Below are positions 5,634 to 22,209 of a stretch of DNA of 51,114 nt, one piece after another (positions within the stretch are counted from its first letter, which is position 1; every line of letters begins with the position of its first letter). This DNA comes from an uncultured Phycisphaeraceae bacterium (GTDB taxonomy: Bacteria > Planctomycetota > Phycisphaerae > Phycisphaerales > UBA1924), in NCBI GenBank assembly GCA_964399625.1, contig CAYNSB010000028.1, positions 1 to 51,114 on the forward strand, written 5' to 3'. The position numbers and the translations under genes are program-made. The notes under the pieces are model-generated. The model saw only the letters and a list, made by a program, of their open reading frames with translations, searched no databases and had not been told where the DNA came from.

Positions 5634-6614
5634 TCACACCACCGTGGCGCGCACGACCACCAGCGCCGCGACGCTGATCGCGACCCACATCACGACGCCC
5701 TGCACGAGCGCCCGCCACCCCACCTCGCGCAGCGCCTTGCGTGAGAGCCCCGCGCCGATCAGGAAGAGGGCCAGCGTCATTCCGCTCTTGGCGATGCTGA
5801 GAAGCGCCGGCGAGGCGTCGCCCAGCGGGCCCGGGAAGAGCGTTCGCGCGCCCGCCGCGAGCACGAAGAGCCCGATGAACCACGGCACGGGCAGGGGCTT
5901 CCTTTGGCTCGATGCGCCCCCGGCGCGCGATCGCACCCATGCCGCCGCGACGAGGCAGATCGGGATGATCCACAGCACGCGCGAGAGCTTCACCACGGTC
6001 GCGGTGTCCACCGCCGCGCTCGCATCGACGCCCGCCGCACGCGCCTGATCCGCGAACGACTGCGCCGCGCCCACGACGCTCGAGACGTCGTGGATCGCGA
6101 CCCCGGCCCACGTGCCGAACTGCGTGGGGCTCAGCCCCATCGCGCGCCCCAACTCAGGGAACACGAACAGCGCCACGCCGTTGAGAATGAACACCGTGCC
6201 CGTCGCAACGCTGATCGCCGTGCTGCTGGCGCCGATGACGGAGGACACGGCGGCGATCGCCGAGCCGCCGCAGATCGCCGTGCCGCTCGAGAGCAGCGTG
6301 GACACCTTCCCCTCCACCTTGAGCACGCGCCCCAGGGCCCAGCCCAGCGCGAAGGTGCCGGCGATCGTCCCGATCGCGAAGAGCACGCCGCTCGTGCCCG
6401 CCCGCGCGACCTCGTGCAGGTTCATGCGCAGCCCTAGCAGCACCACGCACGCCTGGATCGCGTATCGCGAAACCTTCTTCTCGATGGCGCCCGGCTGCAC
6501 CAGACCCGCCAGCGCCAACACCACCCCCGCGAGCAGCCCCGCCTCGACCTGGAACCGTGCCGCCCGGGGCGCGATCTCGCTCCACGGCACCACGCACAGC
6601 ATCGCCCCGCCCAT
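5634..6614 (-). CDS. YeiH/UPF0324-family inner-membrane protein (putative sulfate exporter family)
   Basis: Polytopic membrane protein with the conserved ...SSGTAICGGSAIAA..., ...GVAIHDVSSVVGAA... pattern of the YeiH family. Start placed at the internal Met (MGGAMLCV). Confidence 0.65.
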   Translation of the reverse strand: MGGAMLCVVPWSEIAPRAARFQVEAGLLAGVVLALAGLVQPGAIEKKVSRYAIQACVVLLGLRMNLHEVARAGTSGVLFAIGTIAGTFALGWALGRVLKVEGKVSTLLSSGTAICGGSAIAAVSSVIGASSTAISVATGTVFILNGVALFVFPELGRAMGLSPTQFGTWAGVAIHDVSSVVGAAQSFADQARAAGVDASAAVDTATVVKLSRVLWIIPICLVAAAWVRSRAGGASSQRKPLPVPWFIGLFVLAAGARTLFPGPLGDASPALLSIAKSGMTLALFLIGAGLSRKALREVGWRALVQGVVMWVAISVAALVVVRATVV

Positions 6615-6703
6615 GAGAATGAGGCGAGAGCGGGTGAGCAGAGGATTGGTCTGGTCGGTCTTCACACGGAACGGAAACGGCGGATCGATCGCTACTCTAC
6701 CGC

Positions 6704-7963
6704 ATGACCCCGCCGCGCGCACGACCCGCTCCCTCCGAGTTCTTCGGCCGATTCCTGCTCGATCCTGAGGTGGTGTTCCTGAACCACGGCTCGTTCGGGG
6801 CCCTGCCGCGCGAGGTGCACGCGGCGCGGATCGCGCTCACGGAGCGCATGGAACGCGAGCCGGTGCGATTCATCGTGCGCGACCTGGATCCGCTGTACGA
6901 CGCGACGCGCGCGGCGCTGGCGCCGTTCCTCCGCTGCCGCCCGGAGGACCTCGTGTTCGTCCCGAACGTCACCAACGCGATGGCGATCGTCCTCGCGAAC
7001 TTGGAGGCGTCGCTGGGCGCGGGCGATGAGCTGCTCGCGACGGGGCACGAGTACCCGGCGTGCCTGAACAACCTGCAACGCACCGCGTCGCGCACCGGCG
7101 CGCGCGTCGTGCTGCGGGCGCTGCCGTTCCCCGTGCGCTCGCCCGACGAGATTGTCGAGGCCGTCATGGCCGCCGTCACCCCCCGCACCCGCTTCCTTCT
7201 TCTAAGCCACGTGACGAGCCCGACGGGCCTCGTGCTGCCCGTGGAGCGGATCGTGCCCGAGCTCGAGCATCGCGGCGTCGCGTGCTTCGTGGACGGCGCG
7301 CACGCCCCGGGCATGGTCGAATCGCTGGACCTGAGCGCGCTCAACGCGAGCTACTACAGCGCCAACTGCCACAAGTGGATCTGTTCGCCCAAGGGCTCGG
7401 CCTTCCTGCACATCCGCGCCGATCGACAGAAGGGCTTCCGCCCGCTCGTGCTCTCCAACAACGCGGAGAAGCCCAAGCGCGGGCGCATCCACCTGCACAC
7501 GGAGTTCGATTACATCGGCACGCAGGACTACACCGCGAACCTGTGCATCCCCGATGCGCTGCGCGTGATGGGCGCGATGCTCCCCGGCGGATGGGCGGAG
7601 GTCATGCGCCGCAATCGCGACCTGTGCCTGCGGGCCCGCGCGCACCTGTGCACATCATTGGGCGTGGAGCCCCCCGCGCCCGAGAGCATGATCGGGAGCA
7701 TCGCGACGATGATGCTGCCCGTCGAGCCCGACGCCGGCGGGCGCGGCGCGCGATTGGCCGCCCGCCCGAGCATCTACCACGACGCGCTGCAGGATGCGCT
7801 CATCGAGCGCCACGCGATCCAGGTGCCGGTGTGGTCCATCCCCACGGAGACCCCGCCGCGGCGTCTGTTCCGCATCTCGGCCCAGATCTACAACTCGCTG
7901 GCGCAGTACGAGTATCTCGCCCAGGCGCTGCGCGAGGAACTCCATCGCGAACGTGATTGCTAA
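6704..7963 (+). CDS. Class V aminotransferase (isopenicillin-N-epimerase/cysteine-desulfurase-like PLP enzyme)
   Basis: VVFLNHGSFGALPREV... N-terminus, ...SANCHKWICSPKGSAFL... PLP-lysine region. 419 aa. Confidence 0.7.
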   Translation: MTPPRARPAPSEFFGRFLLDPEVVFLNHGSFGALPREVHAARIALTERMEREPVRFIVRDLDPLYDATRAALAPFLRCRPEDLVFVPNVTNAMAIVLANLEASLGAGDELLATGHEYPACLNNLQRTASRTGARVVLRALPFPVRSPDEIVEAVMAAVTPRTRFLLLSHVTSPTGLVLPVERIVPELEHRGVACFVDGAHAPGMVESLDLSALNASYYSANCHKWICSPKGSAFLHIRADRQKGFRPLVLSNNAEKPKRGRIHLHTEFDYIGTQDYTANLCIPDALRVMGAMLPGGWAEVMRRNRDLCLRARAHLCTSLGVEPPAPESMIGSIATMMLPVEPDAGGRGARLAARPSIYHDALQDALIERHAIQVPVWSIPTETPPRRLFRISAQIYNSLAQYEYLAQALREELHRERDC

Positions 7964-8039
7964 TCCACTCACCAAGGCCTCGCCAACACGCGCGCCCAAG
8001 TGACGACGCCCGTCCACCCGACGCTGAACCGCCACCCGA

Positions 8040-8148
8040 CGCCGAGCCTGAGAAGGCTTTGCGACGAAGGCTCGGGTTGCTCCTTCTCTGCACGCGCAGT
8101 CGCTCGATCAACCCGAGCCTTCGCTCGCGGGCTCGCTCAGACTCGGCG
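8040..8148. repeat. Structured repeat element, copy 1 (roughly 110 nt; nested inverted repeats)
   Basis: Outer arms CGCCGAGCCTGAG (8040-8052) / CTCAGACTCGGCG (8136-8148); inner perfect 15-bp arms CGAAGGCTCGGGTTG (8065-8079) / CAACCCGAGCCTTCG (8109-8123). Also GAGAAGG/CCTTCTC. About 85 % identical to copy 2 at 10325-10432. Confidence 0.7.
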
Positions 8149-8186
8149 TTCGGTCCCGCCCGCGCCATCCGCATTACGATTGTCTC

Positions 8187-8942
8187 GTGAAACCCCGCTG
8201 GCGCAAGCCCCTGATCTGCGGCGCGATCGTGGGGGTCGTGTCGTCGGTGGCGGTGCCGGTCACGATCTCGATCGCGACCAATGCCAACAGATTTCCGTTT
8301 GTTTTCCTCAACAAGAACAAGTTGTGGCACGCGCGCGAGTCTTTGTTTTGTGACGAACGCACGCACGAGTTTGGCTACACGGTAAGCGCTGAATGGGTTG
8401 CAACTCACTACTTCATCCGGACGAGCATGCCCGATCCGAGAGTTTCAAGTCAATACCCTGCAGGAGTCGTGCCCGCGTGGCTGCCCCGGCCATACTCGCG
8501 CCACTGGACCCATGCGGCTGCCGTGGGATTTCCAATGCGCTCATTGTTCGGCTGGTCGTCGAAGGAAGAGAGCAAGATTGTTTCAGGGGGCCTTCGCACC
8601 GGTGACCCCGGGGTCTTTGACCACGGCTGGATTCAACTCGCACGCCTTCAACTCCCCGCGCGCGACTTGTACATCGAGTTCCCCTACCTCCCCATCTGGT
8701 CCGGCCTCATCGTCAACGCCCTCACCCACGCCGCGGCCTGGTCCGCGCTCTTCCTTGGACTCGCCCAGCTCCTCCCCTCCGCCCGTCGCGCACGCCGCAC
8801 CCGTCGCGGCCTCTGCCCCGCCTGCGCCTACGACCTCCGCCACGAACTCGCCTCAGGCTGCTCGGAGTGCGGGTGGAGGCGGGGCGGTCCGGCCCCGATG
8901 GGCGCACCCAGTTCTGAGAATCGGGCTACCTACTTTCAGTGA
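8187..8942 (+). CDS. Paralog 1 of a tandem three-gene family: two-TM membrane protein with a C-terminal Arg-rich segment and a CPxC...C(S/P)EC zinc-ribbon-like motif
   Basis: N-terminal TM (PLICGAIVGVVSSVAVPV), conserved GFPMRSLFGW and GWIQLA motifs, second TM (IWSGLIVNALTHAAAWSALFLGLAQLL), then RRARRTRRGLCPACAYDLRHELASGCSECGW. Local GC about 52 % in the 5' half. Confidence 0.6.
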   Translation: MKPRWRKPLICGAIVGVVSSVAVPVTISIATNANRFPFVFLNKNKLWHARESLFCDERTHEFGYTVSAEWVATHYFIRTSMPDPRVSSQYPAGVVPAWLPRPYSRHWTHAAAVGFPMRSLFGWSSKEESKIVSGGLRTGDPGVFDHGWIQLARLQLPARDLYIEFPYLPIWSGLIVNALTHAAAWSALFLGLAQLLPSARRARRTRRGLCPACAYDLRHELASGCSECGWRRGGPAPMGAPSSENRATYFQ

Positions 8943-8957
8943 AGTACGATTGGTGCG

Positions 8958-9683
8958 ATGCACAGGCGCTGGCGCCAGCCCCTGATCTGCGGCGCGATCG
9001 TGGGGATCGTGTCGTCGGTGATGGTGCCGGTTGCGATCTCGATCCTCAGCACGGCAAACGACCTGCCGACATATGTGCTGATCACGCGCGGCACGCAGCA
9101 CAAAGTCTGGCTGTACGACGATTCGGCCAAGATCACGCACCACAGAGCGGATTTCCATTGGGCCACCAGCCATTACAGCGCTTCCAGCGGCCCACCGAAT
9201 TTCGCGACCCCGCACACGCCTGGAACCGTGCCCGCGTGGATGCCTCGCCCAGACCAAGACAACGACATCCACGCATGCGCCGTTGGATTTCCTATGCGCT
9301 CGTTGTATGGGTGGACGCTCGTTCCGCGCTCGATGGTGCTCGGGTGCCGCACCGGGCTTCCTGATCGACGTCCGCCGCTCTTTGCCAGCGGCTGGATTCA
9401 ACTTGCGAGTTTCGAGAACCAGATTCGCCCGATCAGTGTCGAATTCCCGTATCTCCCCATCTGGTCCGGCCTCATCATCAACGCCCTGACCCATGCCGCG
9501 GCCTGGTCCGCGCTCTTCCTTGGACTCGCCCAGCTCTTCCCCTCCGCGCGTCGCGCCCGGCGCACCCGCCGCGGCCTCTGCCCCGCCTGCGCCTACGACC
9601 TCCGCCGCGAACTTGCCGCCGGCTGCCCCGAGTGCGGGTGGAAAAGATCGCTTTCGCGCGAACCCGAGCCCGCCCAACGCTGA
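8958..9683 (+). CDS. Paralog 2 of the tandem family (same architecture; 3' end about 95 % identical to paralog 1 at the DNA level)
   Basis: MHRRWRQPLICGAIVGIVSSV... N-terminus; shared GFPMRSLYGW, GWIQLA, EFPYLPIWSGLIINALTHAAAWSALFLGLAQLF, RRARRTRRGLCPACAYDLRRELAAGCPECGW. Confidence 0.6.
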   Translation: MHRRWRQPLICGAIVGIVSSVMVPVAISILSTANDLPTYVLITRGTQHKVWLYDDSAKITHHRADFHWATSHYSASSGPPNFATPHTPGTVPAWMPRPDQDNDIHACAVGFPMRSLYGWTLVPRSMVLGCRTGLPDRRPPLFASGWIQLASFENQIRPISVEFPYLPIWSGLIINALTHAAAWSALFLGLAQLFPSARRARRTRRGLCPACAYDLRRELAAGCPECGWKRSLSREPEPAQR

Positions 9684-9688
9684 AGTAG

Positions 9689-10336
9689 GTGCGGATGCCA
9701 AGGCTCCTCCGATGGGTGCTCGCGTCGATCCTGCTCGGAGCGATCACATCATTTGGATTGATGGTCCTTGGCGGCGCCGCAATGAGCCGCGGGCACCTTG
9801 GCTCATTCCGCGTGTTGGCCATCCGCGAGCCAGATGGGCGAGTGGTGATCTGGAGCGGAAATGTTTCGCTCCTCGGCGAAGACCTGCATCGATTCACGCA
9901 GTTCGATCCCAACGACTTCGGCGAGCCAGCACGCTCGCCCTGGTGGGTCTCCCAGATGGAGGGGCTCTCGATGGCTTCCGCGAGGACCTCCACGCGCGTG
10001 CTGATCTCGGGCTGGCCGATGCGTTCCATGATGGAGTACTCTCACGTGGAAATGTGCTCGATCGGAGCTGATACCGAGCACTTTGTTCGATGGTCCAAGG
10101 TGGTCGCCAACCTGGTGATTCACAGCCTCGCATGGAGTTTGCTCCTTCCGGTGCTCTCGGCCATCCACGCCAGATACCACTCGCGCCCCACTCTCCGCAC
10201 CCGCCGCGGCCTCTGCCCCGCCTGCGCCTACGACCTCCGCCACGAACTTGCCGCCGGCTGCCCCGAGTGCGGGTGGGGGCGGGGCGAGAGCACCGGATCG
10301 CCGCTGATGGGGCGCTCGCCCCGACGCCGAGCCTGA
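9689..10336 (+). CDS. Paralog 3 of the tandem family (more divergent N-terminal and central region; same C-terminal TM and zinc-ribbon-like tail)
   Basis: GWPMRSMMEY motif, TM HSLAWSLLLPVLSAI, then RTRRGLCPACAYDLRHELAAGCPECGW. Its stop codon lies inside repeat copy 2. Confidence 0.55.
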   Translation: MRMPRLLRWVLASILLGAITSFGLMVLGGAAMSRGHLGSFRVLAIREPDGRVVIWSGNVSLLGEDLHRFTQFDPNDFGEPARSPWWVSQMEGLSMASARTSTRVLISGWPMRSMMEYSHVEMCSIGADTEHFVRWSKVVANLVIHSLAWSLLLPVLSAIHARYHSRPTLRTRRGLCPACAYDLRHELAAGCPECGWGRGESTGSPLMGRSPRRRA

Positions 10337-10432
10337 GGAGGCTTTGCGCCGAAGGCTCGGGTTGCTCCTTCTTTGCGCGCCACAACGCACCAAAGCCCGA
10401 GCCTTCGCTCGCGGACTCGCTCAGACTCGGCG
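10325..10432. repeat. Structured repeat element, copy 2 (overlaps the stop of paralog 3)
   Basis: CGCCGAGCCTGAG (10325-10337) ... CGAAGGCTCGGGTTG (10350-10364) ... CAAAGCCCGAGCCTTCG (10391-10407) ... CTCAGACTCGGCG (10420-10432). Same nested-IR layout as copy 1. Confidence 0.7.
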
Positions 10433-10501
10433 TCCAGCAACCACCACGCGCCCGCTCGCCCATCACACGCTCGCTCCTCCCGCCCCCGGTACGATCCTGC
10501 G

Positions 10502-11575
10502 ATGTCCGACACGAGCCATGGTGGGCCGGAGGGGATCGCGGAAGGAGCCGTCGGGGCGGATGCTCGCCCCCACGCCCCCGAGGCCGAGGCTTCTCTTTAC
10601 CTGCACCCGCAGACGCTCGCGCGTCTGGGCTCCTTCGAGCTGCGGGCCAAGATGATCGTCGAGGGCGTGATGAGCGGGCAGCACCGCTCGCCGTACCACG
10701 GCTTCTCCGTCGAGTTCGCCCAGCACCGCCCCTACGTCGCGGGCGATGACCTTCGCCGCCTGGACTGGAAGGTCTACGGGCGCTCCGACAAGCTCCACCT
10801 GAAGCAGTACCAGCAGGAGACCTCGCTCGACCTGGTCGTGCTCGTCGATGCGTCGGGGTCGATGCGCTATGGCTCGCGCACGTTCGAGGACGCGTCGGGC
10901 GCGGGGCACACGCTCAGCCCGGACGGTCGCTCCAACTGGTCCAAGTTCGACCACGCGACGGCCGTCGCCGCGGCGCTGGCGTACATCACGCTGCACCAGG
11001 GCGATCGGGCGGGGCTGGTGATCTTCGCCGACGACGTGCGCGGGATGGTCCGCCGGTCGAGCTCGCAGGGCACCTGGCGGCAGATCGTCGGGGCGCTGGC
11101 GGCGCACTACGTGCCCGATCGGCGTCCGGGCGTGCAGGAGATCGGTCGCGCGACGGACTTCGGGCGCGTCATCGATCAGTCCCTCGCCAAGCTCACCAAC
11201 CGCTGCCTGCTCGTGCTCATCTCCGATTTCTTCGGCGACCCCGAGGAGCTTCGCGCGGCGCTGGCGCGCGTGCGCCATCGCGGGCACGACCTGATCGCGT
11301 TCCAGGTGCTCGATCGCGAGGAGCTGGAGTTCGACTTCAAGGACGCCGCGCCCTTCGAGGGCCTCGAGGGCGAGGAGCGTCTGCGCGTCGATCCGCGGGC
11401 GCTTCGCGCGGGCTACCTCGCGGCGATCCGTCGGCACCTGGACAAGGTCGAGCGCGTGTGCCGGGCGTTCAACTTCGATCACCACGTGATCAACACGCAC
11501 GACTGGCTGGGCCCGCCGTTGGCGGCGTTCGTGGCGCGGCGGAACGCGCAGATCAAGCGGAGCAAGCAGGCGTGA
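10502..11575 (+). CDS. DUF58-domain protein (vWA-like, Bat/MoxR-associated)
   Basis: ...SPYHGFSVEFAQHRPYVAGDDLRRLDWKVYGRSDKLHLKQYQQETSLDLVVLVDASGSM... is the DUF58 signature. Start placed at MSDTSHGG (10502). Confidence 0.8.
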   Translation: MSDTSHGGPEGIAEGAVGADARPHAPEAEASLYLHPQTLARLGSFELRAKMIVEGVMSGQHRSPYHGFSVEFAQHRPYVAGDDLRRLDWKVYGRSDKLHLKQYQQETSLDLVVLVDASGSMRYGSRTFEDASGAGHTLSPDGRSNWSKFDHATAVAAALAYITLHQGDRAGLVIFADDVRGMVRRSSSQGTWRQIVGALAAHYVPDRRPGVQEIGRATDFGRVIDQSLAKLTNRCLLVLISDFFGDPEELRAALARVRHRGHDLIAFQVLDREELEFDFKDAAPFEGLEGEERLRVDPRALRAGYLAAIRRHLDKVERVCRAFNFDHHVINTHDWLGPPLAAFVARRNAQIKRSKQA

Positions 11576-16472: not shown

Positions 16473-19400
16473 TTGCTCGGCTCTTCGCCCATGCACGACT
16501 CGCCCGACAGCACCCCGTCCCTCGGCTCGCGCGTGTCGGGCATCGAGTCGCGCCTGCGGACGGTGCGCGCCCGGGCCCGCACGCTGCTTATCGCCTCGGG
16601 CCTGGCGAGCGTCGCGACGATCGTGATCGGGTCGCTGGTGCTCGCGGCGTTCCTTGATTACCTCGTGCGCTCGCCCGATTGGCTTCGCCTCGCGCTGTGG
16701 ATCGCCGGGGCGCTGGGGCTCGTGTGGCTCGTGCGCCGGCACGTGCGCCCGGCGTGGGGCTTCCGCCCCGATCTCTCGCAGGTCGCGCTGCGCCTGGAGC
16801 GCTCCGACGCCGGGCGTGCCGCGGGGCTGGAGGGCCTGCTCACCTCCGGGCTCGAGCTGGCAAAGGAACTCGACGCCGCGCCGGGCCCGGCGACGACGCG
16901 GGCGCTGGGGACTTCGGTCGTCGCCCGGGCGGTGGACTCGTTCGCCGGCGTGCGGGCGGGCGCGCTGCTCGATCTGCGCGGGGCGCGCCGGCACGTGCTG
17001 GCGATGCTCGCGTGCGTCGCGGGCGCCGTGGGCATCATCGCGGCGGTGGGCCCCACGCCCACGCGCACCGCGCTGACGCGCCTGCTGGCCCCCTGGGCCG
17101 GGGCGCAGTGGCCCAAGCGCACCGAGATCGTCGATGCGACCCGCCTGACGGTGCACCCGCTGGGCGCGGCGATCCCCCTGCGCGCGGCGCTCACGCACTC
17201 GGACCGCCCCGAGGGGCAGGCCCGCATCACCGCCAGCTATCGCGTCGTCACCGACGGCACGCCCGGGCCCACGCGCCAGGTCCTGCTCACGGGGCAGCGC
17301 CGCACGATCTCTCTGCCCGACGAGGGGCGGGCGCCCATCTCGGGCGAGCTGTACGAGCGCCTGATCGACGCGGAGGTCGCCGTCGCGCCCGGCGTGCATT
17401 CGCTGGAGTACTGGCTCACCTCCGACGATGACGCGACCCCGCGGACGCGGGTGCTGCTGGTCGAGCCGCCGGCCGTCGTCGCCGCCAGCGCGACCATCAC
17501 GCCCCCCGAGTACGCCCGCCCGCTGCTGTCGAGCGAGGGGGCGCGGTTCGCCTCGGGGCAGCGCGAGCTGGGCACGGGCACGGACCAGCGGGCCGTGGTG
17601 GGCCCGATCCTTGCCGGCTCGTCCGTCGAGCTCACGATCGCGTTCAACAAGCCCGTCCGTTCGCCCGGCGAGGTGGACCGCGAGGCGCTGGCCCGGTTCC
17701 TCAACCAGGTGTTCCGCGGGGCGGACCTGGGCACGATCGAGCGCGCCTCGTTCACGCCCGCCGCGTGGACGATCGTCTTCTCGCCGCGGGCGAGCCTGCG
17801 CCTCCCCGTGTACGCCAGCGACGAGCACGGGCTGGCGACCCGCGAGGAGGGCGCGTTCTCCTTCGACCTCGCGGAGGACAAGCCGCCCAGCGTGTCGGTG
17901 ATGGAGCCGCGCGAGGACGAGTCGGTGCTCCCCGGCGCGAGCATCGGGGTAACGGGCGAGGCGCGGGACGATGTGGGCATCGGCTCGCTCGTGCTCACGC
18001 GCCAGAGGGCCACCCCGCCCGCGGGCACCACCAGCAAGGTGCCCGAGCTCACGGGCGATCCCGAGACGTTCGCCTCGCTGCCCGAGGGCGCGCCCCAGCC
18101 CGGGGCCCGCAGCGTCCACGCGACGCTCGAATTGGCGGGGCTGGACCTGAAGCCGGGCGATGAGGTCTGGCTCCACGCGATCGCGCAGGACACCTACGCC
18201 GCGCGCACCGACTCGGGCGAGGCCCGCCACGATCCGGTGCGCTCCAGCCCGCGCAAGCTCCGCATCATCCGCGAGGAGGAGCTGGTCGCGCAGATCCGCC
18301 AGGAGCTCTCGGGCGTGCGCAAGGCCGCGCTCCGCCTGGACGCCGAGCAGGGCGACCTGCGCAAGAGCGTGGACCAGGGCGCGGTGACGAGCGAGGAGCG
18401 TCGCCGCCAGGCCGGGCTGACACAACGCCTGTCGCAGCAGCGTGAGGTGGTGGACCGTCTGTCGCAGCGGACCGAGCGCAACCGCCTGAGCGACCAGACG
18501 CTCAAGGACCTTCTGGGCGAGTTGTCGTCGTCGTTCGACGCCGCCGCGAGCCCCTCGGAGCGTGCCGCGGGACAGATGGACCAGCAGGCCCGTGCCCAGG
18601 CGCCCGCGGGGCAGCCCGAGGCCGAGCGCGCCGAACTGCCCGAGCGCGAGCGGGCGTCGATCGCCAAGGACCAGGACGCGGTGCGCGAGCAGCTCGCGCG
18701 CGTCGCCGAGCTGCTCGACAAGGGCGAGGACTCCTGGCTCGTCGGGCGCACGCTCCAGAAACTCCTCGACCAGCAGCGCTCGTTGCAGTCGCAGACCCGG
18801 CGCGCCGCCGAGCGCTCCCAGGGCAAGCGTCCCGCGGACCTCACGCCCCAGGAGCGCGGGCTGCTCGAGCAGCTCGCGGACCAGCAGCGTCGTCTCGCCG
18901 AGCAGGCGCGCTCCGCCCTGGACCAGCTCTCGCAGCGCTCCAAGCAGATGCAGTCCGTGGACACCGCGCAGTCCCAGGCGATGAAGCAGGCCGAGCAGCG
19001 CGGGCGTCAGCAGCAGCTCGAGCAGAAGATGTCCGAGGCCGCGCGCAACGTCGAGAAGAACCAGACGAGCTCGGCCGACGCCCAGCAGCAGGAGGCGACG
19101 AACGCCCTCGAGCAGATGCTCCAGGATCTGAACAACGCGCAGAAGAACCGCGACGCCGCCCTGCGTCGCATCCTCGCCTCGCTCATCGAGTCTCTGCAGC
19201 GGCTCGTGGCGGACCAGGAGTCGCAGCTTGCGGCGCTGGACAAGGGCATCGAGGGCGGCGCGCTCGACGGGCTCGCGCCCCCGCTCATCGCGCTCAATCG
19301 CGCGACGCTGGGAGCCGCGGAGCAGGCCCGGGGCGACAAGGCCTTCGCCGCGCTCGCCAAGATCATCGAGCTCGCCGCCGACGCCCAGGGCAAGGGCGTC

Positions 19401-20180
19401 TCGGCCCTCCGCGCCGCGCCCGTCGATGCCAAGCTCGCGCAGGAGCAGGAGCGCGAGAGCCTCCGCCAGCTCCGCCTGGCGCTCGAGCAGGCGCAGCGCC
19501 TGCAGCAGAAGCAGCAGCAGAACGAGCAGGACCAGAAGCGCCAGCAGCTCCGCGCGATCTACCGCGAGCTGCTCGAGACGCAAGTCGCCCTCAAGGGCGA
19601 GGTCGATCCATTCACCGGAAAGCCCCTGGAGCGCCGCGATCGCATCGCCCTGCGCGCCCTGGGCGAACGCCAGGAGCAGATCCAGAAGAAGCTCGCCGAG
19701 ACCCGCGCGATGAGCCAGGACATGCAGGACGCCGGCGTCATCCAGCTCGCGCACGACCGCCTCGACGCCGCGACGGGCGTCGCCGCCAAGAAGCTCAAGA
19801 ACGGGTCCGCCGACGCGTCGGTCGCCCGCAACCAGGACTCGGCGATCCGCGTGCTCAAGGCGCTCGTGGAGGCCCTGGACGATCGCGCCAAGGACAACGA
19901 CGAGTTCCAGGACGAGTCGCAGGGCGGCGGCGGGGGACAGAACGGACAGGGACAGAAGCCCCCGCTGGTGCCCCCGCTCGCGGAACTTCGCCTGCTCCGC
20001 TCCATGCAGCAGGAGATCGGCGAACGCACCCGCGCGACCGACGAATCACCCGATGCCGACGAGCTGCGCCGCCTGGGCGACGACCAGCAGAAGCTCTTCG
20101 ATCGGGGCAACGAGCTGATCGAGAAGCTCAAGAAGCAGCAGGGCGGGCCCGAAACGCCCAAGGAACCCAAGGGAGACTGA
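16473..20180 (+). CDS. Large (1235 aa) membrane-anchored protein with a roughly 500-aa Gln/Glu/Arg/Ala-rich coiled coil; DUF4175-like
   Basis: Two N-terminal TMs, a beta-rich middle, then a long coiled coil (…QQQQNEQDQKRQQLRAIYRELLETQ…) and a Gly/Gln-rich tail. The architecture matches the DUF4175 proteins found beside BatA genes. Confidence 0.5.
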   Translation: MLGSSPMHDSPDSTPSLGSRVSGIESRLRTVRARARTLLIASGLASVATIVIGSLVLAAFLDYLVRSPDWLRLALWIAGALGLVWLVRRHVRPAWGFRPDLSQVALRLERSDAGRAAGLEGLLTSGLELAKELDAAPGPATTRALGTSVVARAVDSFAGVRAGALLDLRGARRHVLAMLACVAGAVGIIAAVGPTPTRTALTRLLAPWAGAQWPKRTEIVDATRLTVHPLGAAIPLRAALTHSDRPEGQARITASYRVVTDGTPGPTRQVLLTGQRRTISLPDEGRAPISGELYERLIDAEVAVAPGVHSLEYWLTSDDDATPRTRVLLVEPPAVVAASATITPPEYARPLLSSEGARFASGQRELGTGTDQRAVVGPILAGSSVELTIAFNKPVRSPGEVDREALARFLNQVFRGADLGTIERASFTPAAWTIVFSPRASLRLPVYASDEHGLATREEGAFSFDLAEDKPPSVSVMEPREDESVLPGASIGVTGEARDDVGIGSLVLTRQRATPPAGTTSKVPELTGDPETFASLPEGAPQPGARSVHATLELAGLDLKPGDEVWLHAIAQDTYAARTDSGEARHDPVRSSPRKLRIIREEELVAQIRQELSGVRKAALRLDAEQGDLRKSVDQGAVTSEERRRQAGLTQRLSQQREVVDRLSQRTERNRLSDQTLKDLLGELSSSFDAAASPSERAAGQMDQQARAQAPAGQPEAERAELPERERASIAKDQDAVREQLARVAELLDKGEDSWLVGRTLQKLLDQQRSLQSQTRRAAERSQGKRPADLTPQERGLLEQLADQQRRLAEQARSALDQLSQRSKQMQSVDTAQSQAMKQAEQRGRQQQLEQKMSEAARNVEKNQTSSADAQQQEATNALEQMLQDLNNAQKNRDAALRRILASLIESLQRLVADQESQLAALDKGIEGGALDGLAPPLIALNRATLGAAEQARGDKAFAALAKIIELAADAQGKGVSALRAAPVDAKLAQEQERESLRQLRLALEQAQRLQQKQQQNEQDQKRQQLRAIYRELLETQVALKGEVDPFTGKPLERRDRIALRALGERQEQIQKKLAETRAMSQDMQDAGVIQLAHDRLDAATGVAAKKLKNGSADASVARNQDSAIRVLKALVEALDDRAKDNDEFQDESQGGGGGQNGQGQKPPLVPPLAELRLLRSMQQEIGERTRATDESPDADELRRLGDDQQKLFDRGNELIEKLKKQQGGPETPKEPKGD

Positions 20181-20184
20181 TCCC

Positions 20185-20970
20185 GTGAGCCGCGCGCCGC
20201 AGAACGCCCGTGCCCTCGACGCCCGCACACAGCCGCGGCTGGCGTGCGCCCGCGTCGCGCTGCTGGCTCTGCTCTGCGCGGGCGCGGCGCACACGGGCTT
20301 CGCCCAGCCCGCGCCCCCCGCCGCTCCCGCCCCGGCCAAGGCCCCCGATCCCACGCTCGATGAGCTGCTGGGCATCGCGCCCAAGAAGCCCGACGCCAAA
20401 CCCACCGACGCCAAGCCCGAGGCCAAGCCCGAGGCCAAGCCCGATACGAAGCCGGCGCTCCCCGACGCCACGGCCCTGGACCTTCAGCGCAAGCTGTCGC
20501 CCGAGGAATCCAAGGAGAAGTTCGAGGAAGCGATCGCGCTCATGGGCGACACCGCCCAGCGCCTGCAGAAGGGCAAGGACACCTCCCTCGCGACCCAGCG
20601 CATCCAGGAGGACATCGTCCGTCGGCTCGACATGGTCATCCGCCAGGCCGAGCAGAACAAGAAGCAGAGCAAGAGCCAGTCCAAGTCCTCCCGCTCGCAG
20701 CAGCAGGACCCCTCGTCGCAGCAGCAGCAGGGGCAGCAGCGTCGCCAGGACGATCGGCACAACTCCGACTCGCGCGACAACCTGGACCCGCCCGCGGCCC
20801 GCCCCGCCGAGCTTAATCCCGAGCTGACCGCCCGCGGGCAGGCGTGGGGCGCGCTCCCGCAGCGCGTGCGCGACGCGCTCCTGCAGGGCACGAGCGACAA
20901 GTACAGCACGCTCTACCAGCGCTGGACCGAGCAGTACTACCGCAAGCTCGCCGAGGAAGGAAAGAAGTAG
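20185..20970 (+). CDS. Secreted low-complexity protein (signal peptide, KP/AKPE repeats, Gln/Ser-rich region)
   Basis: LALLCAGAAHTGFAQ signal; PKKPDAKPTDAKPEAKPEAKPDTKP repeats; SRSQQQDPSSQQQQGQQRRQ. 5-nt gap after the upstream gene. Confidence 0.5.
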   Translation: MSRAPQNARALDARTQPRLACARVALLALLCAGAAHTGFAQPAPPAAPAPAKAPDPTLDELLGIAPKKPDAKPTDAKPEAKPEAKPDTKPALPDATALDLQRKLSPEESKEKFEEAIALMGDTAQRLQKGKDTSLATQRIQEDIVRRLDMVIRQAEQNKKQSKSQSKSSRSQQQDPSSQQQQGQQRRQDDRHNSDSRDNLDPPAARPAELNPELTARGQAWGALPQRVRDALLQGTSDKYSTLYQRWTEQYYRKLAEEGKK

Positions 20971-21042
20971 CGATCGATCGAGCCATCATCGCAGATCACC
21001 GCAGAGATCGCAGAGAAAACGCAGAACCCAGCCACTCCAACG

Positions 21043-22209
21043 ATGCGCCCCCTCAACACAACTGCTTTGCGTCTTCTCTGCGCCCTGTGCGTCTCTGCGG
21101 CGAGCCTCGCCCAGCCCGAGGCGCCCCCGCCCGCCGAAGGCAAACCCGCCGAGAGCAAGCCGGCGGAGCCCAAGCCCGAGCCGTCCAAGGACAACCCCAT
21201 CAAGGCCGAGCCCGAGCGCGCCCACGGCGCCAGCGCCCAGAACGCGGCCCTGGCCAACGAGATCACCCCGGAGTTGACCGCCGCGGTCACCAAGGGCGTG
21301 GAGTATCTCGTCAAGCAGCAGGGCCCCGACGGCGCGTTCGGCGATGGTCGGTTCGGGCGCAACGTCGCCGTCACCTCGCTCGCCTCCATCGCCGTGATGG
21401 CCGATGGAAACCTCCCCGGGCGCGGGCCGCACGGCGACGCGATCTCCCGCGCCGTGGACTACGTCCTGCAGAACGCCACCGAGTCCGGGCTCATCGCGTC
21501 GGACTCGTCCTCCGGGCCGATGTACGGGCACGGGTTCGCGACGCTCTTCCTGGGCGAGGTCTATGGCATGACCGCCGGCGGGGGCGACAACGCCCAGTCC
21601 CACAAGCTCCACGAGGCGCTCGTCAAGGCGGTGCACCTCATCGAGCAGACCCAGAACGAGCAGGGCGGATGGCGGTACAACCCCGTGCCCTACGACGCGG
21701 ACGTCTCCGTCACGATCTGCCAGATCATGGCCCTGCGCTCGGCCCGCAACGCCGGCATCGAGGTCGCCAAGGACACCGTCGATCGCGCCGTGGACTACGT
21801 CCGCCGATGCCAGAACGCCGACGGCGGATTCCGCTACCAGCTCGACCTGGGCCCCTCGGCCTGGCCGCGATCGGCCGCCGGCGTCGCCACCTTCTTCTAC
21901 GCGGGAATCTACGAGGACAAGGCGATCGATTCGGGGCTCGAGTACATCGCGCGCGAGGCGACGCCCGGCGTGACCAACCCCGGGCGCGCCCACTACTGGT
22001 ACGGGCACTACTACTCCGTGCAGGCGATGTACCTCGCGGGCGGGCCCGCCTGGGCCCGATGGTGGCCCGCGGTCCGCGATGAGCTCCTCCGCGCCCAGCA
22101 GGACGACGGACACTGGGAGGACCGTGCCGTGGGCGACGTCTATGGCACCTCCATGGCGCTGATCGTCCTGCAAATGCCCAAGCGCTATCTGCCGATCTTC
22201 CAGAAATGA
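21043..22209 (+). CDS. Secreted prenyltransferase/squalene-oxidase-repeat protein (terpene-cyclase alpha-alpha toroid fold)
   Basis: Signal peptide, then repeated QxxDGGW/QNADGGF-type motifs (VKQQGPDGAFGD, QNEQGGWRYNP, CQNADGGFRYQ, AQQDDGHWED). Confidence 0.65.
   Translation: MRPLNTTALRLLCALCVSAASLAQPEAPPPAEGKPAESKPAEPKPEPSKDNPIKAEPERAHGASAQNAALANEITPELTAAVTKGVEYLVKQQGPDGAFGDGRFGRNVAVTSLASIAVMADGNLPGRGPHGDAISRAVDYVLQNATESGLIASDSSSGPMYGHGFATLFLGEVYGMTAGGGDNAQSHKLHEALVKAVHLIEQTQNEQGGWRYNPVPYDADVSVTICQIMALRSARNAGIEVAKDTVDRAVDYVRRCQNADGGFRYQLDLGPSAWPRSAAGVATFFYAGIYEDKAIDSGLEYIAREATPGVTNPGRAHYWYGHYYSVQAMYLAGGPAWARWWPAVRDELLRAQQDDGHWEDRAVGDVYGTSMALIVLQMPKRYLPIFQK

What the first reader, a model, noticed from the sequence alone, without database searches (positions are those of the whole stretch)
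8040..10432. Two copies of a roughly 110-nt nested-inverted-repeat element bracket the paralog cassette
An element is present in two copies at 8040-8148 and 10325-10432. Its layout is CGCCGAGCCTGAG…CGAAGGCTCGGGTTG…(29-nt loop)…CAACCCGAGCCTTCG…CTCAGACTCGGCG.

The copies are about 85 % identical. Each can fold as a long imperfect outer stem enclosing a perfect 15-bp inner stem, with an extra GAGAAGG/CCTTCTC pairing. Copy 2 provides the stop codon of paralog 3. Copy 1 lies downstream of the aminotransferase and shares 17 nt (CCCGACGCCGAGCCTGA) with the end of paralog 3, as if it were the relic 3' end of a fourth paralog.

The elements could mark the boundaries of a duplication or insertion unit. 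They could be MITE/REP-like palindromic units, or a structured sRNA or terminator that travels with each gene copy. The ORF-track ORFs 8000..8353 and 10344..10655 are translations of this repeat and are not real genes.
Basis: seen in the sequence. Interest (0 to 1): 0.7.

Follow-up and report, generated by a model that had tools for sequence, protein, structure and literature searches.

The report
Hairpin repeat pair flanking gene cassette
Two copies of a roughly 115-base hairpin-forming repeat, built like the small mobile palindromic repeats known from other bacteria, sit on either side of three accessory membrane-protein genes that the closest related genome lacks; this is a real but fairly ordinary kind of feature.

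Summary
Two direct copies lie at 8035-8150 and 10320-10434. They are 87% identical, and similarity starts and stops at the hairpin base. There is no third copy in the window.

Each copy is an inverted doublet. A 38-nt unit (GACG tag, 8-bp stem CCGAGCCT/AGGCTCGG, 18-nt loop) is followed by a 37-nt spacer and then the inverted unit. Units are 95% identical between copies and the spacer 72%. This is REPIN / head-to-head REP-dimer architecture.

It is not simply the paralogs' 3' UTR:
- Paralogs 1 and 2 lack it, as do homologues on three other contigs.
- A diverged copy sits at another intergenic site, in opposite orientation, in the closest relative (a Phycisphaerales genome). That genome has neither cassette nor element between the aminotransferase and DUF58 genes.
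- A near-perfect 85-nt version occurs on an unrelated metagenome contig.

There is no Rfam match and no covariation for an RNA. No target-site duplication, U-tract, transposase or integrase was found in the window.

Best reading: a low-copy REPIN/MITE-like palindromic repeat that acts passively as a transcript-end hairpin and recombination substrate. Genome-wide copy number and the mobilising enzyme remain untested. It is a new member of a known kind, of modest interest.

The parts
8035..8150 (+). Element copy 1 (E1), about 115 nt. It lies 72 nt after the aminotransferase stop and 36 nt before the paralog 1 start.
   Evidence: 126 bits with model R1; long hairpin z -7.6 as RNA and -6.6 as ssDNA
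8038..8075 (+). E1 left unit: tag GACG, stem CCGAGCCT, 18-nt loop, stem AGGCTCGG
   Evidence: read from the sequence; 36/38 identical to the E2 left unit; stem pairs counted
8076..8112 (+). E1 spacer (37 nt) with complementary ends GTTG/CAAC. It is the most variable part of the element.
   Evidence: 72% identity to the E2 spacer, against 95% for the units
8113..8150 (+). E1 right unit, inverted: stem CCGAGCCT, 18-nt loop, stem AGACTCGG, tag CGTT
10320..10434 (+). Element copy 2 (E2): left unit 10323-10360, spacer 10361-10396, right unit 10397-10434. It contains the stop codon of paralog 3 (10334-10336) and ends 67 nt before the DUF58 start.
   Evidence: 128 bits; identical in four Logan assemblies
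8015..8050 (+). 18-nt imperfect tandem duplication CCACCCGACGCTGAACCG / CCACCCGACGCCGAGCCT (15/18). It duplicates the 5' end of E1 plus 3 flanking bases, and the first copy carries a TGA.
   Evidence: read from the sequence; origin unexplained
8187..8942 (+). Paralog 1 (251 aa): N-terminal transmembrane helix, beta-rich domain, C-terminal transmembrane helix, then a CxxC...CxxC zinc ribbon
   Evidence: GC3 0.76
8958..9683 (+). Paralog 2 (241 aa), with no element after its stop
   Evidence: GC3 0.79
9689..10336 (+). Paralog 3 (215 aa). Its last 5 codons and stop come from E2.
   Evidence: GC3 0.79
6704..7963 (+). Class-V aminotransferase gene, the left neighbour. It is directly adjacent to DUF58 in the closest relative.
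10502..11575 (+). DUF58 gene, the right neighbour. Homology with the relative's intergenic region resumes at 10478-10496 (CCCGCCCCCGGTACGATCC).

Best explanation
E1 and E2 are two members of a small family of hairpin-forming palindromic repeats of the REPIN / REP-dimer / MITE kind.

Anatomy (shown). Each copy is an inverted doublet of a 38-nt unit. The unit has an outer tetranucleotide tag (GACG...CGTY), an 8-bp stem (CCGAGCCT/AGGCTCGG) and a 12-18-nt loop. [quoted passage not shown]

Origin (inferred). Such elements spread as non-autonomous DNA, most plausibly through a single-stranded hairpin intermediate handled by a trans-acting HUH/tyrosine (RAYT- or IS200-like) transposase encoded elsewhere. 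A copy landed in or at the 3' end of a gene of a rare, compositionally atypical membrane-protein family. The two copies here are each other's closest relatives. They probably arose by local duplication or recombination during the expansion or relocation of the three-gene cassette.

Current role (inferred). In place they are mostly passive:
- On the co-directional transcript (aminotransferase, paralogs, DUF58) they would form very stable 3' hairpins. E1 sits where the relative has an ordinary terminator hairpin. These hairpins could stop or stabilise transcripts.
- As 115-nt direct repeats they are substrates for homologous recombination that can delete or move the cassette.
For: Repeat unit and anatomy:
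- Similarity is confined to the hairpin: units 95%, spacer 72%, flanks at background.
- Each arm carries its own 8-bp inverted repeat, giving the A-A'-spacer-A-A' layout of REP head-to-head dimers/REPINs. The literature definitions are in PMC3337134 and PMC3733652.

Independence from the paralog genes:
- Paralogs 1 and 2 and homologues on L037, L047 and L048 have no copy.
- With E2 removed, the junction CTCGCCCCGACGC|CCAGCAACC matches the uninterrupted paralog end CTCGCCCGACGCAGCAACC in L037 (8/500 shuffles). E2 therefore looks like an insertion.

Other family members:
- L032-L036 come from the closest relative, whose DUF58 is 90% identical in protein sequence. They carry a 74%-identical copy, with the 5' 43 nt 93% identical. 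It is in the opposite orientation, 12 nt after an NTP-transferase gene.
- L022 is an unrelated 59%-GC contig. It carries an 85-nt near-perfect hairpin with the same outer and inner stems but a different middle and spacer, 65 nt after an HNH endonuclease gene (72 bits, E 7e-15).

Empty site:
- The relative has aminotransferase, a 178-nt unrelated intergenic region with its own terminator-like hairpin, then DUF58.

Decay pattern typical of dead copies:
- The relative's copy folds poorly (z -3.2/-1.8 as RNA, -1.2 as ssDNA).
- In its right unit, both strands of the local stem changed together: CCGAGGAT/ATCCTCGG.

All four loci lie just downstream of a gene, between co-directional genes. This is the usual habitat of REPs (PMC3733652 abstract).
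Against: Copy number is not shown:
- There are only 2 copies in 51 kb, 1 in 21 kb of the relative and 1 elsewhere.
- Exact-pattern scans of 596 Gb of genomes and of JGI metagenomes found only L022 beyond chance hairpins.
- A six-frame peptide search found nothing.
- Logan contigs run straight through E2, so there are no near-identical copies sharing 31-mers in that sample.

No mobilising machinery or insertion signature:
- No RAYT, transposase or integrase is encoded in the window.
- No target-site duplication is visible at any of the four loci.

Weak points in the unit model:
- The 38-nt units fold only weakly on their own (z -1.7 and +0.3). The 'two REPs' reading therefore rests on sequence symmetry and on one compensatory event.
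- The units do not match the four published CGTC-REP families, which have 8-9-bp stems and 4-5-nt loops.

All three Phycisphaerales copies lie at or near present or probable former paralog loci. Independence from the cassette within this lineage therefore rests mainly on L022.
Confidence: 0.5

Rival explanations
1. The element is the native 3' end (a U-less terminator or 3'-UTR stabiliser) of the paralog gene unit. It was duplicated with the genes. E1 is what remains of a lost fourth paralog upstream of paralog 1.
For: - E2 overlaps the stop codon of paralog 3.
- E1 is preceded by CCACCCGACGC. This resembles the ends of element-free paralogs in L037 (TCGCCCGACGC...) and of paralog 2 (CCCAACGCTGA).
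- E1 and E2 are each other's closest relatives.
- The relative's copy sits about 30 nt from a stretch that is colinear with the L037 paralog-B end plus downstream spacer. The 26-nt block is matched by 0/500 shuffles, and the upstream part by 35/1000.
Against: - Similarity between E1 and E2 stops at the hairpin base. Left-of-E1 and right-of-E1 against paralog ends or intergenic regions is not above shuffles (165/500, 128/500, 221/500).
- Five other family genes lack it: paralogs 1 and 2, two in L037, and those in L047 and L048.
- L022 carries the element with no paralog on the contig.
- The E2-deleted junction matches an uninterrupted paralog end.
- There is no U-tract.
Confidence: 0.2
2. E1, the cassette and E2 form one mobile unit: a passenger segment bounded by two direct copies of a palindromic element, like MITE-flanked composite units. 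It is moved or excised as a block by a trans-acting enzyme or by recombination between the copies.
For: - The cassette and both elements are absent from the same site in the closest relative.
- The cassette family sits at a different locus in L037, upstream of a 107-aa gene. At that locus the relative has a solo element plus a probable paralog relic.
- The paralog genes have lower GC3 than their neighbours in every genome examined.
- The family is very rare: 19 clusters among 5.8 billion.
Against: - No target-site duplication flanks the whole unit.
- The copies differ by 13%, so the arrangement is not recent.
- There is no recombinase in the window.
- The unique spacers outside the elements (7964-8034 and 10435-10477) also differ from the relative, so the indel is larger than the unit.
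- All four Logan assemblies of the source carry the cassette side of E2 and show no cassette-less junction.
Confidence: 0.12
3. The element encodes a structured small RNA or cis-regulatory RNA under selection for its fold.
For: - The hairpins are very stable.
- The 5' 43 nt are 93% conserved between E2 and the relative's copy.
- Several G-U-compatible positions lie on the + strand.
Against: - No Rfam family matches, even at E<=1.
- The RNAalifold covariation term is unfavourable (+1.87), and stem pairs are broken in the relative.
- For the long-hairpin model, 111/500 shuffles do as well.
- The relative's copy is inverted with respect to local transcription and has lost the fold.
- There is no consistent strand preference in folding energy.
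Confidence: 0.05

Closest known systems
REPINs (REP doublets forming hairpins; Bertels & Rainey 2011, PMC3116915, PMC3337134)
   Same: - Two short imperfect palindromes lie in inverted orientation around a less conserved spacer.
- The whole element, about 90-130 nt, folds as one hairpin.
- The units are more conserved than the spacer (95% against 72% here).
- The location is extragenic and downstream of genes.
- Older copies decay.
   Different: - REPINs occur in tens to hundreds of copies per genome, with a cognate single-copy RAYT gene. Here only 2 copies are seen in 51 kb and no RAYT is visible.
- The units here have long (12-18 nt) loops and fold weakly on their own.
- The host is a Phycisphaerales planctomycete rather than a proteobacterium.
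CGTC-tagged REP head-to-head dimers (Di Nocera et al. 2013, PMC3733652), which include some Rickettsia palindromic elements
   Same: - Tetranucleotide tags lie at the outer ends (GACG...CGTC/CGTT).
- The stems are 8 bp.
- The dimers carry tags outside and a 20-100-bp spacer.
- The two partners have different loops ('heterodimer').
- No dedicated transposase is known.
- Occasional copies reach into coding sequence, as E2 does into paralog 3.
   Different: - Published CGTC families have 4-5-nt loops, A/T pairs at the first stem positions and a CCA tail.
- They were not reported from Planctomycetes, where only GTAG types were reported.
- Tag conservation here rests on four copies.
Long palindromic MITEs such as Correia (Neisseria) and ERIC/IRU (enterobacteria), named from my own knowledge
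   Same: - They are 100-150-nt imperfect palindromes in intergenic regions of co-directional genes.
- They are co-transcribed and form RNA hairpins that affect termination, processing or mRNA stability.
- Pairs can bracket and mobilise or delete intervening DNA.
   Different: - Correia elements make a TA target duplication and carry promoter and IHF sites, and these families are high copy.
- Here there is no target duplication and no sequence similarity to them, and high copy number is not shown.
Integron attC sites
   Same: - Both are imperfect palindromes of 57-141 nt at the 3' end of a gene cassette.
- Both act as folded single strands.
   Different: - There are no RYYYAAC/GTTRRRY core sites.
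- Only one of the three genes has the element at its 3' end.
- There is no integrase or attI in the window.

Membership tests
REPIN / REP dimer | Two copies of a short imperfect palindrome in inverted orientation, separated by a less conserved spacer, with the whole element able to fold as one hairpin | tested here: met
   - The layout is 38-nt units, a 37-nt spacer, then the inverted 38-nt unit.
- Units are 95% identical between copies and the spacer 72%.
- The long hairpin has z -6.6/-5.7 as ssDNA.
REPIN / REP dimer | Conserved terminal tetranucleotide tag (GTAG or CGTC type) at the end of each unit | tested here: inconclusive
   The outer ends read GACG...CGTT (E1), GACG...CGTC (E2), GATG...CGTC (relative) and AACG...CGTT (L022). 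This is only four copies, and the stem and loop dimensions differ from the published CGTC families.
REPIN / REP dimer | Tens to hundreds of dispersed extragenic copies within one genome | tested here: inconclusive
   - There are 2 copies in 51 kb and 1 in 21 kb of the relative.
- There are none in the other 260 kb of loci.
- The rest of the source genome is not available; it is absent from the genome and metagenome collections scanned.
REPIN / REP dimer | Cognate RAYT (Y1 HUH transposase) gene flanked by the repeats | not testable with these tools
   None of about 40 window ORFs has a transposase domain. The rest of the genome is unseen.
MITE | Terminal inverted repeats | tested here: met
   The termini (CCG)ACGCCGAGCCTGAG / CTCAGACTCGGCGT(YCGG) are conserved in E1, E2 and L022.
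MITE | Target-site duplication flanking each copy | tested here: not met
   The flanks of E1, E2, the relative's copy and L022 were inspected. There is no direct repeat abutting both ends.
MITE | Parent insertion sequence with the same termini | not testable with these tools
   There is none in the window or in the fetched loci. The genome-wide search could not be done.
Integron attC | R''/R' core sites (RYYYAAC ... GTTRRRY) at the ends, one site per cassette, and an IntI integrase nearby | tested here: not met
   - The ends are CCGACGCC...GGCGTYCGG.
- Paralogs 1 and 2 have no site.
- There is no integrase in the window.
Canonical intrinsic terminator | GC-rich hairpin immediately followed by a U-tract | tested here: not met
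   The tails are TTCGGTCC (E1) and CCAGCAAC (E2). Neither is reported by the terminator scan. A hairpin-only role is not excluded.
Any curated structured RNA (Rfam 15) | Match to a covariance model, with base pairs supported by covariation | tested here: not met
   - There is no hit at gathering threshold or at E<=1.
- The covariation term is +1.87, and pairs are broken in the relative.

The most novel reading that the evidence does not exclude
The two hairpin elements are the functional ends of a previously undescribed cassette-mobilisation unit. A pair of REPIN-like doublets in direct orientation would let a trans-acting single-strand (HUH-type) enzyme, or recombination between them, cut out and re-insert a block of accessory membrane-protein genes. 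This would explain three observations. The cassette sits between the aminotransferase and DUF58 genes here. It sits upstream of a 107-aa gene in another relative. In the closest relative only a solo element and a gene relic remain.
Probability: 0.1. Interest if true: 0.65.

Novelty: new member of a known kind. Interest (0 to 1): 0.3.

Why it matters
If the reading is right, REPIN/REP-dimer-type palindromic repeats reach into Phycisphaerales, a poorly studied planctomycete lineage. These repeats are best known from proteobacteria, and the published CGTC-tagged survey did not list Planctomycetes (PMC3733652).

It also gives a concrete, checkable case of such repeats bracketing an accessory gene cassette that is present, absent or relocated among close relatives. 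That bears on how small palindromic repeats shape gene gain and loss.

There is a practical point too. The repeat creates spurious ORFs, supplies the stop codon of a real gene, and together with the paralog repeats breaks short-read assemblies. Annotators of these MAGs should mask it.

Tried and rejected
Scans for more copies:
- An exact-pattern scan of the inner stem over GTDB representative genomes gave 18 loci and over JGI metagenomes gave 13 loci. All but L022 share only the searched 11-mers and are unrelated terminator-like hairpins. Neither collection contains the source genome.
- IMG/VR scans with two patterns gave 0 hits.
- blastn in 'distant' mode against plasmids and phages gave no match.
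- A search with a concatenated six-frame translation of the element, looking for spuriously called ORFs over other copies, found nothing at E<=1.
- A literature string search for the stem sequences returned only primer coincidences.

Look-ups that failed:
- Exact-protein look-ups of the paralogs and the aminotransferase are not on record.

Hypotheses tested and dropped:
- Relic of a fourth paralog next to E1: local alignments are not above shuffles.
- Homology between the source and relative intergenic regions: there is none except the last 19 nt before DUF58.
- tRNA-linked integration: there is no tRNA in the window.
- Recent horizontal transfer inferred from the low GC3 of the cassette: rejected as a specific argument, because the family has low GC3 in every genome examined.

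Paralog function:
- There is no Pfam, NCBIfam or PADLOC family; the only hit is a sub-threshold zinc-ribbon match.
- The AF2 model has pLDDT 72 and no PDB fold match. The afdb50 library was unavailable.

One further locus:
- L016 has a nested hairpin with a CGCCGAGGCTCA motif, but it is not significant (E 0.14; 23 bits).
Full report
**The observation**

The region was read directly and repeats were computed. Two direct copies of a roughly 115-nt sequence lie at 8035-8150 (E1) and 10320-10434 (E2). blastn gives 87% identity over 115 nt (E 4e-35).

The similarity is confined to the element. Split into segments, the left 38 nt are 36/38 identical, the central spacer 28/39 and the right 38 nt 36/38. 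The 40 nt on either side align at 57-59%, which is background for this 70%-GC DNA.

Copy 1 has the perfect 15-bp inner stem and 29-nt loop that were reported. Copy 2 keeps 12 perfect pairs. Both copies keep the outer stem GACGCCGAGCCTGAG/CTCAGACTCGGCGT.

Predicted folds are far more stable than shuffles:
- RNA: z -7.6 and -5.3 on the + strand, -6.7 and -6.0 on the - strand.
- ssDNA: z -6.6 and -5.7.

No third copy exists in the 51-kb window by blastn, nhmmer or a covariance model. E2 is identical in four independent Logan assemblies of other runs from the same study, so it is not an assembly artefact.

E2 supplies the last five codons and the TGA stop of paralog 3.

**Gene context**

The window is ordinary chromosome from a high-GC Phycisphaerales (Planctomycetota) MAG. 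It carries lysyl-tRNA synthetase, Mur ligases, MraY, GatC/GatA, QueA and similar genes. It has no transposase, integrase or tRNA gene.

The local order is:
1. Cons_hypoth698 (-)
2. class-V aminotransferase (+)
3. E1
4. three tandem paralogs (+)
5. E2
6. DUF58 (+)
7. BatA-type gene (+)

The paralogs have no Pfam, NCBIfam or PADLOC family. They belong to a very rare family, with 19 clusters among 5.8 billion. The proteins have an N-terminal transmembrane helix, a beta-rich domain, a second helix and a C-terminal CxxC...CxxC ribbon. There is no structural relative in the PDB. Their GC3 is lower than that of their neighbours here and in every other genome where the family was seen.

**Anatomy of the element**

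Each arm of the long hairpin is itself a small imperfect palindrome. In E1:
- 8038-8075 reads GACG | CCGAGCCT | 18-nt loop | AGGCTCGG.
- 8076-8112 is a 37-nt spacer with complementary ends.
- 8113-8150 reads CCGAGCCT | 18-nt loop | AGACTCGG | CGTT.

The element is therefore two 38-nt units in inverted orientation with their tetranucleotide tags on the outside. The two units have the same stems but different loops (8/18 matches).

This is the layout of the head-to-head REP dimers of Di Nocera et al. (PMC3733652). [quoted passage not shown]

Counting pairs on the five-sequence alignment gives:
- local two-hairpin model: 92.5% paired, 3/500 shuffles as good
- single long hairpin: 88.5% paired, 111/500 shuffles as good

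On their own the 38-nt units fold weakly (z -1.7 and +0.3), and the long hairpin dominates thermodynamically. The doublet reading therefore rests on sequence symmetry more than on energy.

**Relatives of the element**

Exact-pattern scans of GTDB genomes and JGI metagenomes for the inner stem returned 31 loci. Thirty of them share only the searched 11-mers and are unrelated hairpins.

One, L022:299-385, is a true relative. It lies on a 2.6-kb contig of 59% GC. It is an 85-nt near-perfect hairpin (ssDNA z -14.3) with three features:
- the same outer stem (ACGCCGAAGTCTGAG/CTCAGACTCGGCGTT)
- the same inner stem
- a different, mutually complementary middle (GTACTC/GAGTAC) and a short spacer

It scores nhmmer E 4e-4 when it is not in the profile and 72 bits with the covariance model. 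It lies 65 nt downstream of an HNH homing-endonuclease gene, and there is no paralog on the contig.

A further copy came from comparative work. The closest relative of the source has a DUF58 protein 90% identical, and is represented by loci L032-L036. It carries a 123-nt homologue at L033:6687-6809. This copy is 74% identical to E1, with the first 43 nt 93% identical to E2. It is on the opposite strand, 12 nt after an NTP-transferase gene.

That copy has largely lost the long hairpin (RNA z -3.2/-1.8, ssDNA z -1.2). In its right unit both strands of the local stem changed together, to CCGAGGAT/ATCCTCGG.

**The empty site and the cassette**

In the same relative the aminotransferase gene is followed directly by DUF58. 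The 178-nt spacer between them is unrelated to the window's sequence and contains its own terminator-like hairpin. Homology resumes only 24 nt before the DUF58 start (window 10478-10496; 0/500 shuffles). The cassette and both elements are therefore absent there.

A third organism (L037, which has a paralog 40% identical in protein sequence) has at least two paralogs upstream of a conserved 107-aa gene. Neither paralog has an element after it. Their ends read TCGCCCGACGCAGCAACCTGA.

With E2 removed, the window reads CTCGCCCCGACGC|CCAGCAACC, which matches that uninterrupted end (8/500 shuffles). E2 therefore looks like an insertion into the 3' end of paralog 3 that replaced the original stop.

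In the closest relative, the element sits just upstream of the same 107-aa gene. It is about 30 nt from a stretch colinear with the L037 paralog end and downstream spacer. The 26-nt block is matched by 0/500 shuffles and the upstream part by 35/1000. This suggests that a paralog array was lost there, leaving one element.

That idea is not supported above chance. There is, however, a real 18-nt tandem duplication of the 5' end of E1 at 8015-8050.

**What it is not**

- No Rfam family matches, even at E<=1.
- RNAalifold gives an unfavourable covariation term, and pairs are broken in the relative.
- There is no U-tract after either copy, and the terminator scan ignores both.
- The ends are not attC core sites, and two of the three genes lack the element.
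- No target-site duplication is visible at any of the four loci.
- No match was found in plasmids, phages or IMG/VR, in translated form among 5.8 billion protein clusters, or in the literature.

**Interpretation**

The best-supported reading (about 0.5) is a low-copy member of a REPIN / REP-dimer / MITE-like family of palindromic repeats.

Shown:
- the doublet anatomy
- conservation of units over spacer
- occurrence at four loci in three organisms, in both orientations and downstream of unrelated genes
- absence from most paralog genes
- the empty site in the closest relative
- the decayed state of one copy

Inferred:
- spread through a single-stranded hairpin intermediate handled by a trans-acting HUH/tyrosine transposase
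- local duplication producing the E1/E2 pair
- a passive present role as a very stable transcript-end hairpin (E1 replaces the relative's terminator)
- a role as a direct-repeat substrate for deletion or relocation of the cassette

The weak points are as follows:
- Copy number in the source genome is unknown.
- Logan contigs run uninterrupted through E2, which argues against many near-identical copies.
- No transposase has been found.
- All three Phycisphaerales copies lie at present or probable former paralog loci.

This leaves room for the rival that the hairpin is a gene-linked 3' structure (about 0.2). It also leaves room for the more interesting idea that the element pair plus cassette is itself a mobile unit (about 0.1).

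**Verdict**

The feature is real and the description was accurate. It is a new member of a known kind, in a lineage where such repeats are little documented. Interest is modest (0.3). It would rise if read-level data showed the bracketed cassette excising or moving.

Noticed in passing
window 8015-8050: There is an 18-nt imperfect tandem duplication (CCACCCGACGCTGAACCG / CCACCCGACGCCGAGCCT, 15/18) immediately at the 5' edge of E1. The first copy ends in ...ACGCTGA, like the stop region of paralog 2 (CCCAACGCTGA). It could be slippage, or a footprint of the event that placed E1.
   Followed up: partly
window 8187-10336; L037, L047, L048: The paralogs belong to a very rare family, mostly from Phycisphaerae-like contigs, with 19 clusters in 5.8 billion proteins. 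Its invariant C-terminal motif is RRGLCPACAYDL...CPECG, placed after a transmembrane helix, and there is a conserved GWP.R motif. GC3 is lower than in neighbouring genes in every genome examined. There is no Pfam, NCBIfam or PADLOC family and no PDB fold match.
   Followed up: partly
window 10184-10286 (also 8784-8886 and 9549-9651): The 103-nt conserved 3' coding repeat shared by the three paralogs is where all four Logan assemblies of the source organism break (contig ends at 10219 or 10247). Short-read assemblies of this locus are therefore fragile.
   Followed up: yes
L033:7031-7354 and L037:1322-1618: A conserved 107-aa gene of unknown function (no Pfam or NCBIfam hit) lies downstream of the paralogs in L037 and downstream of the solo element in the relative. 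It is absent from the window. The 106-aa ORF called at L033:6707-7027 starts inside the element, has GC3 of 0.69, and is probably spurious.
   Followed up: partly
L033:9840-9900: The relative's aminotransferase-DUF58 spacer carries an ordinary terminator-like hairpin (GCACCGCTCTccagAGCGGTGC followed by TTCCTTG). It sits at the position where the source genome has E1.
   Followed up: no
L016:2984-3049 (Solirubrobacterales MAG): This is a nested hairpin. The searched stem GAAGGCTCGGG encloses a second palindrome, TGAGCCTCGGCGGAGC...GCTCCGCCGAGGCTCA. Its motif CGCCGAGGCTCA resembles the outer stem of the element in swapped order. It is not significant (nhmmer E 0.14; 23 bits with R1) and may be chance.
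   Followed up: partly
window 18000-21000: There is a strong A-over-T skew (AT skew 0.23-0.38) across the 3' part of a 1235-aa ORF (16473-20180) and the next ORF, neither of which has a Pfam domain. Another intergenic inverted repeat lies at 21000-21091.
   Followed up: no
window 6704-6722: The divergent Cons_hypoth698 (5634-6722, -) and aminotransferase (6704-7963, +) ORFs overlap by 19 nt at their 5' ends as listed. At least one start codon is probably further in. The exact 419-aa aminotransferase product is not on record in the gene collection.
   Followed up: no
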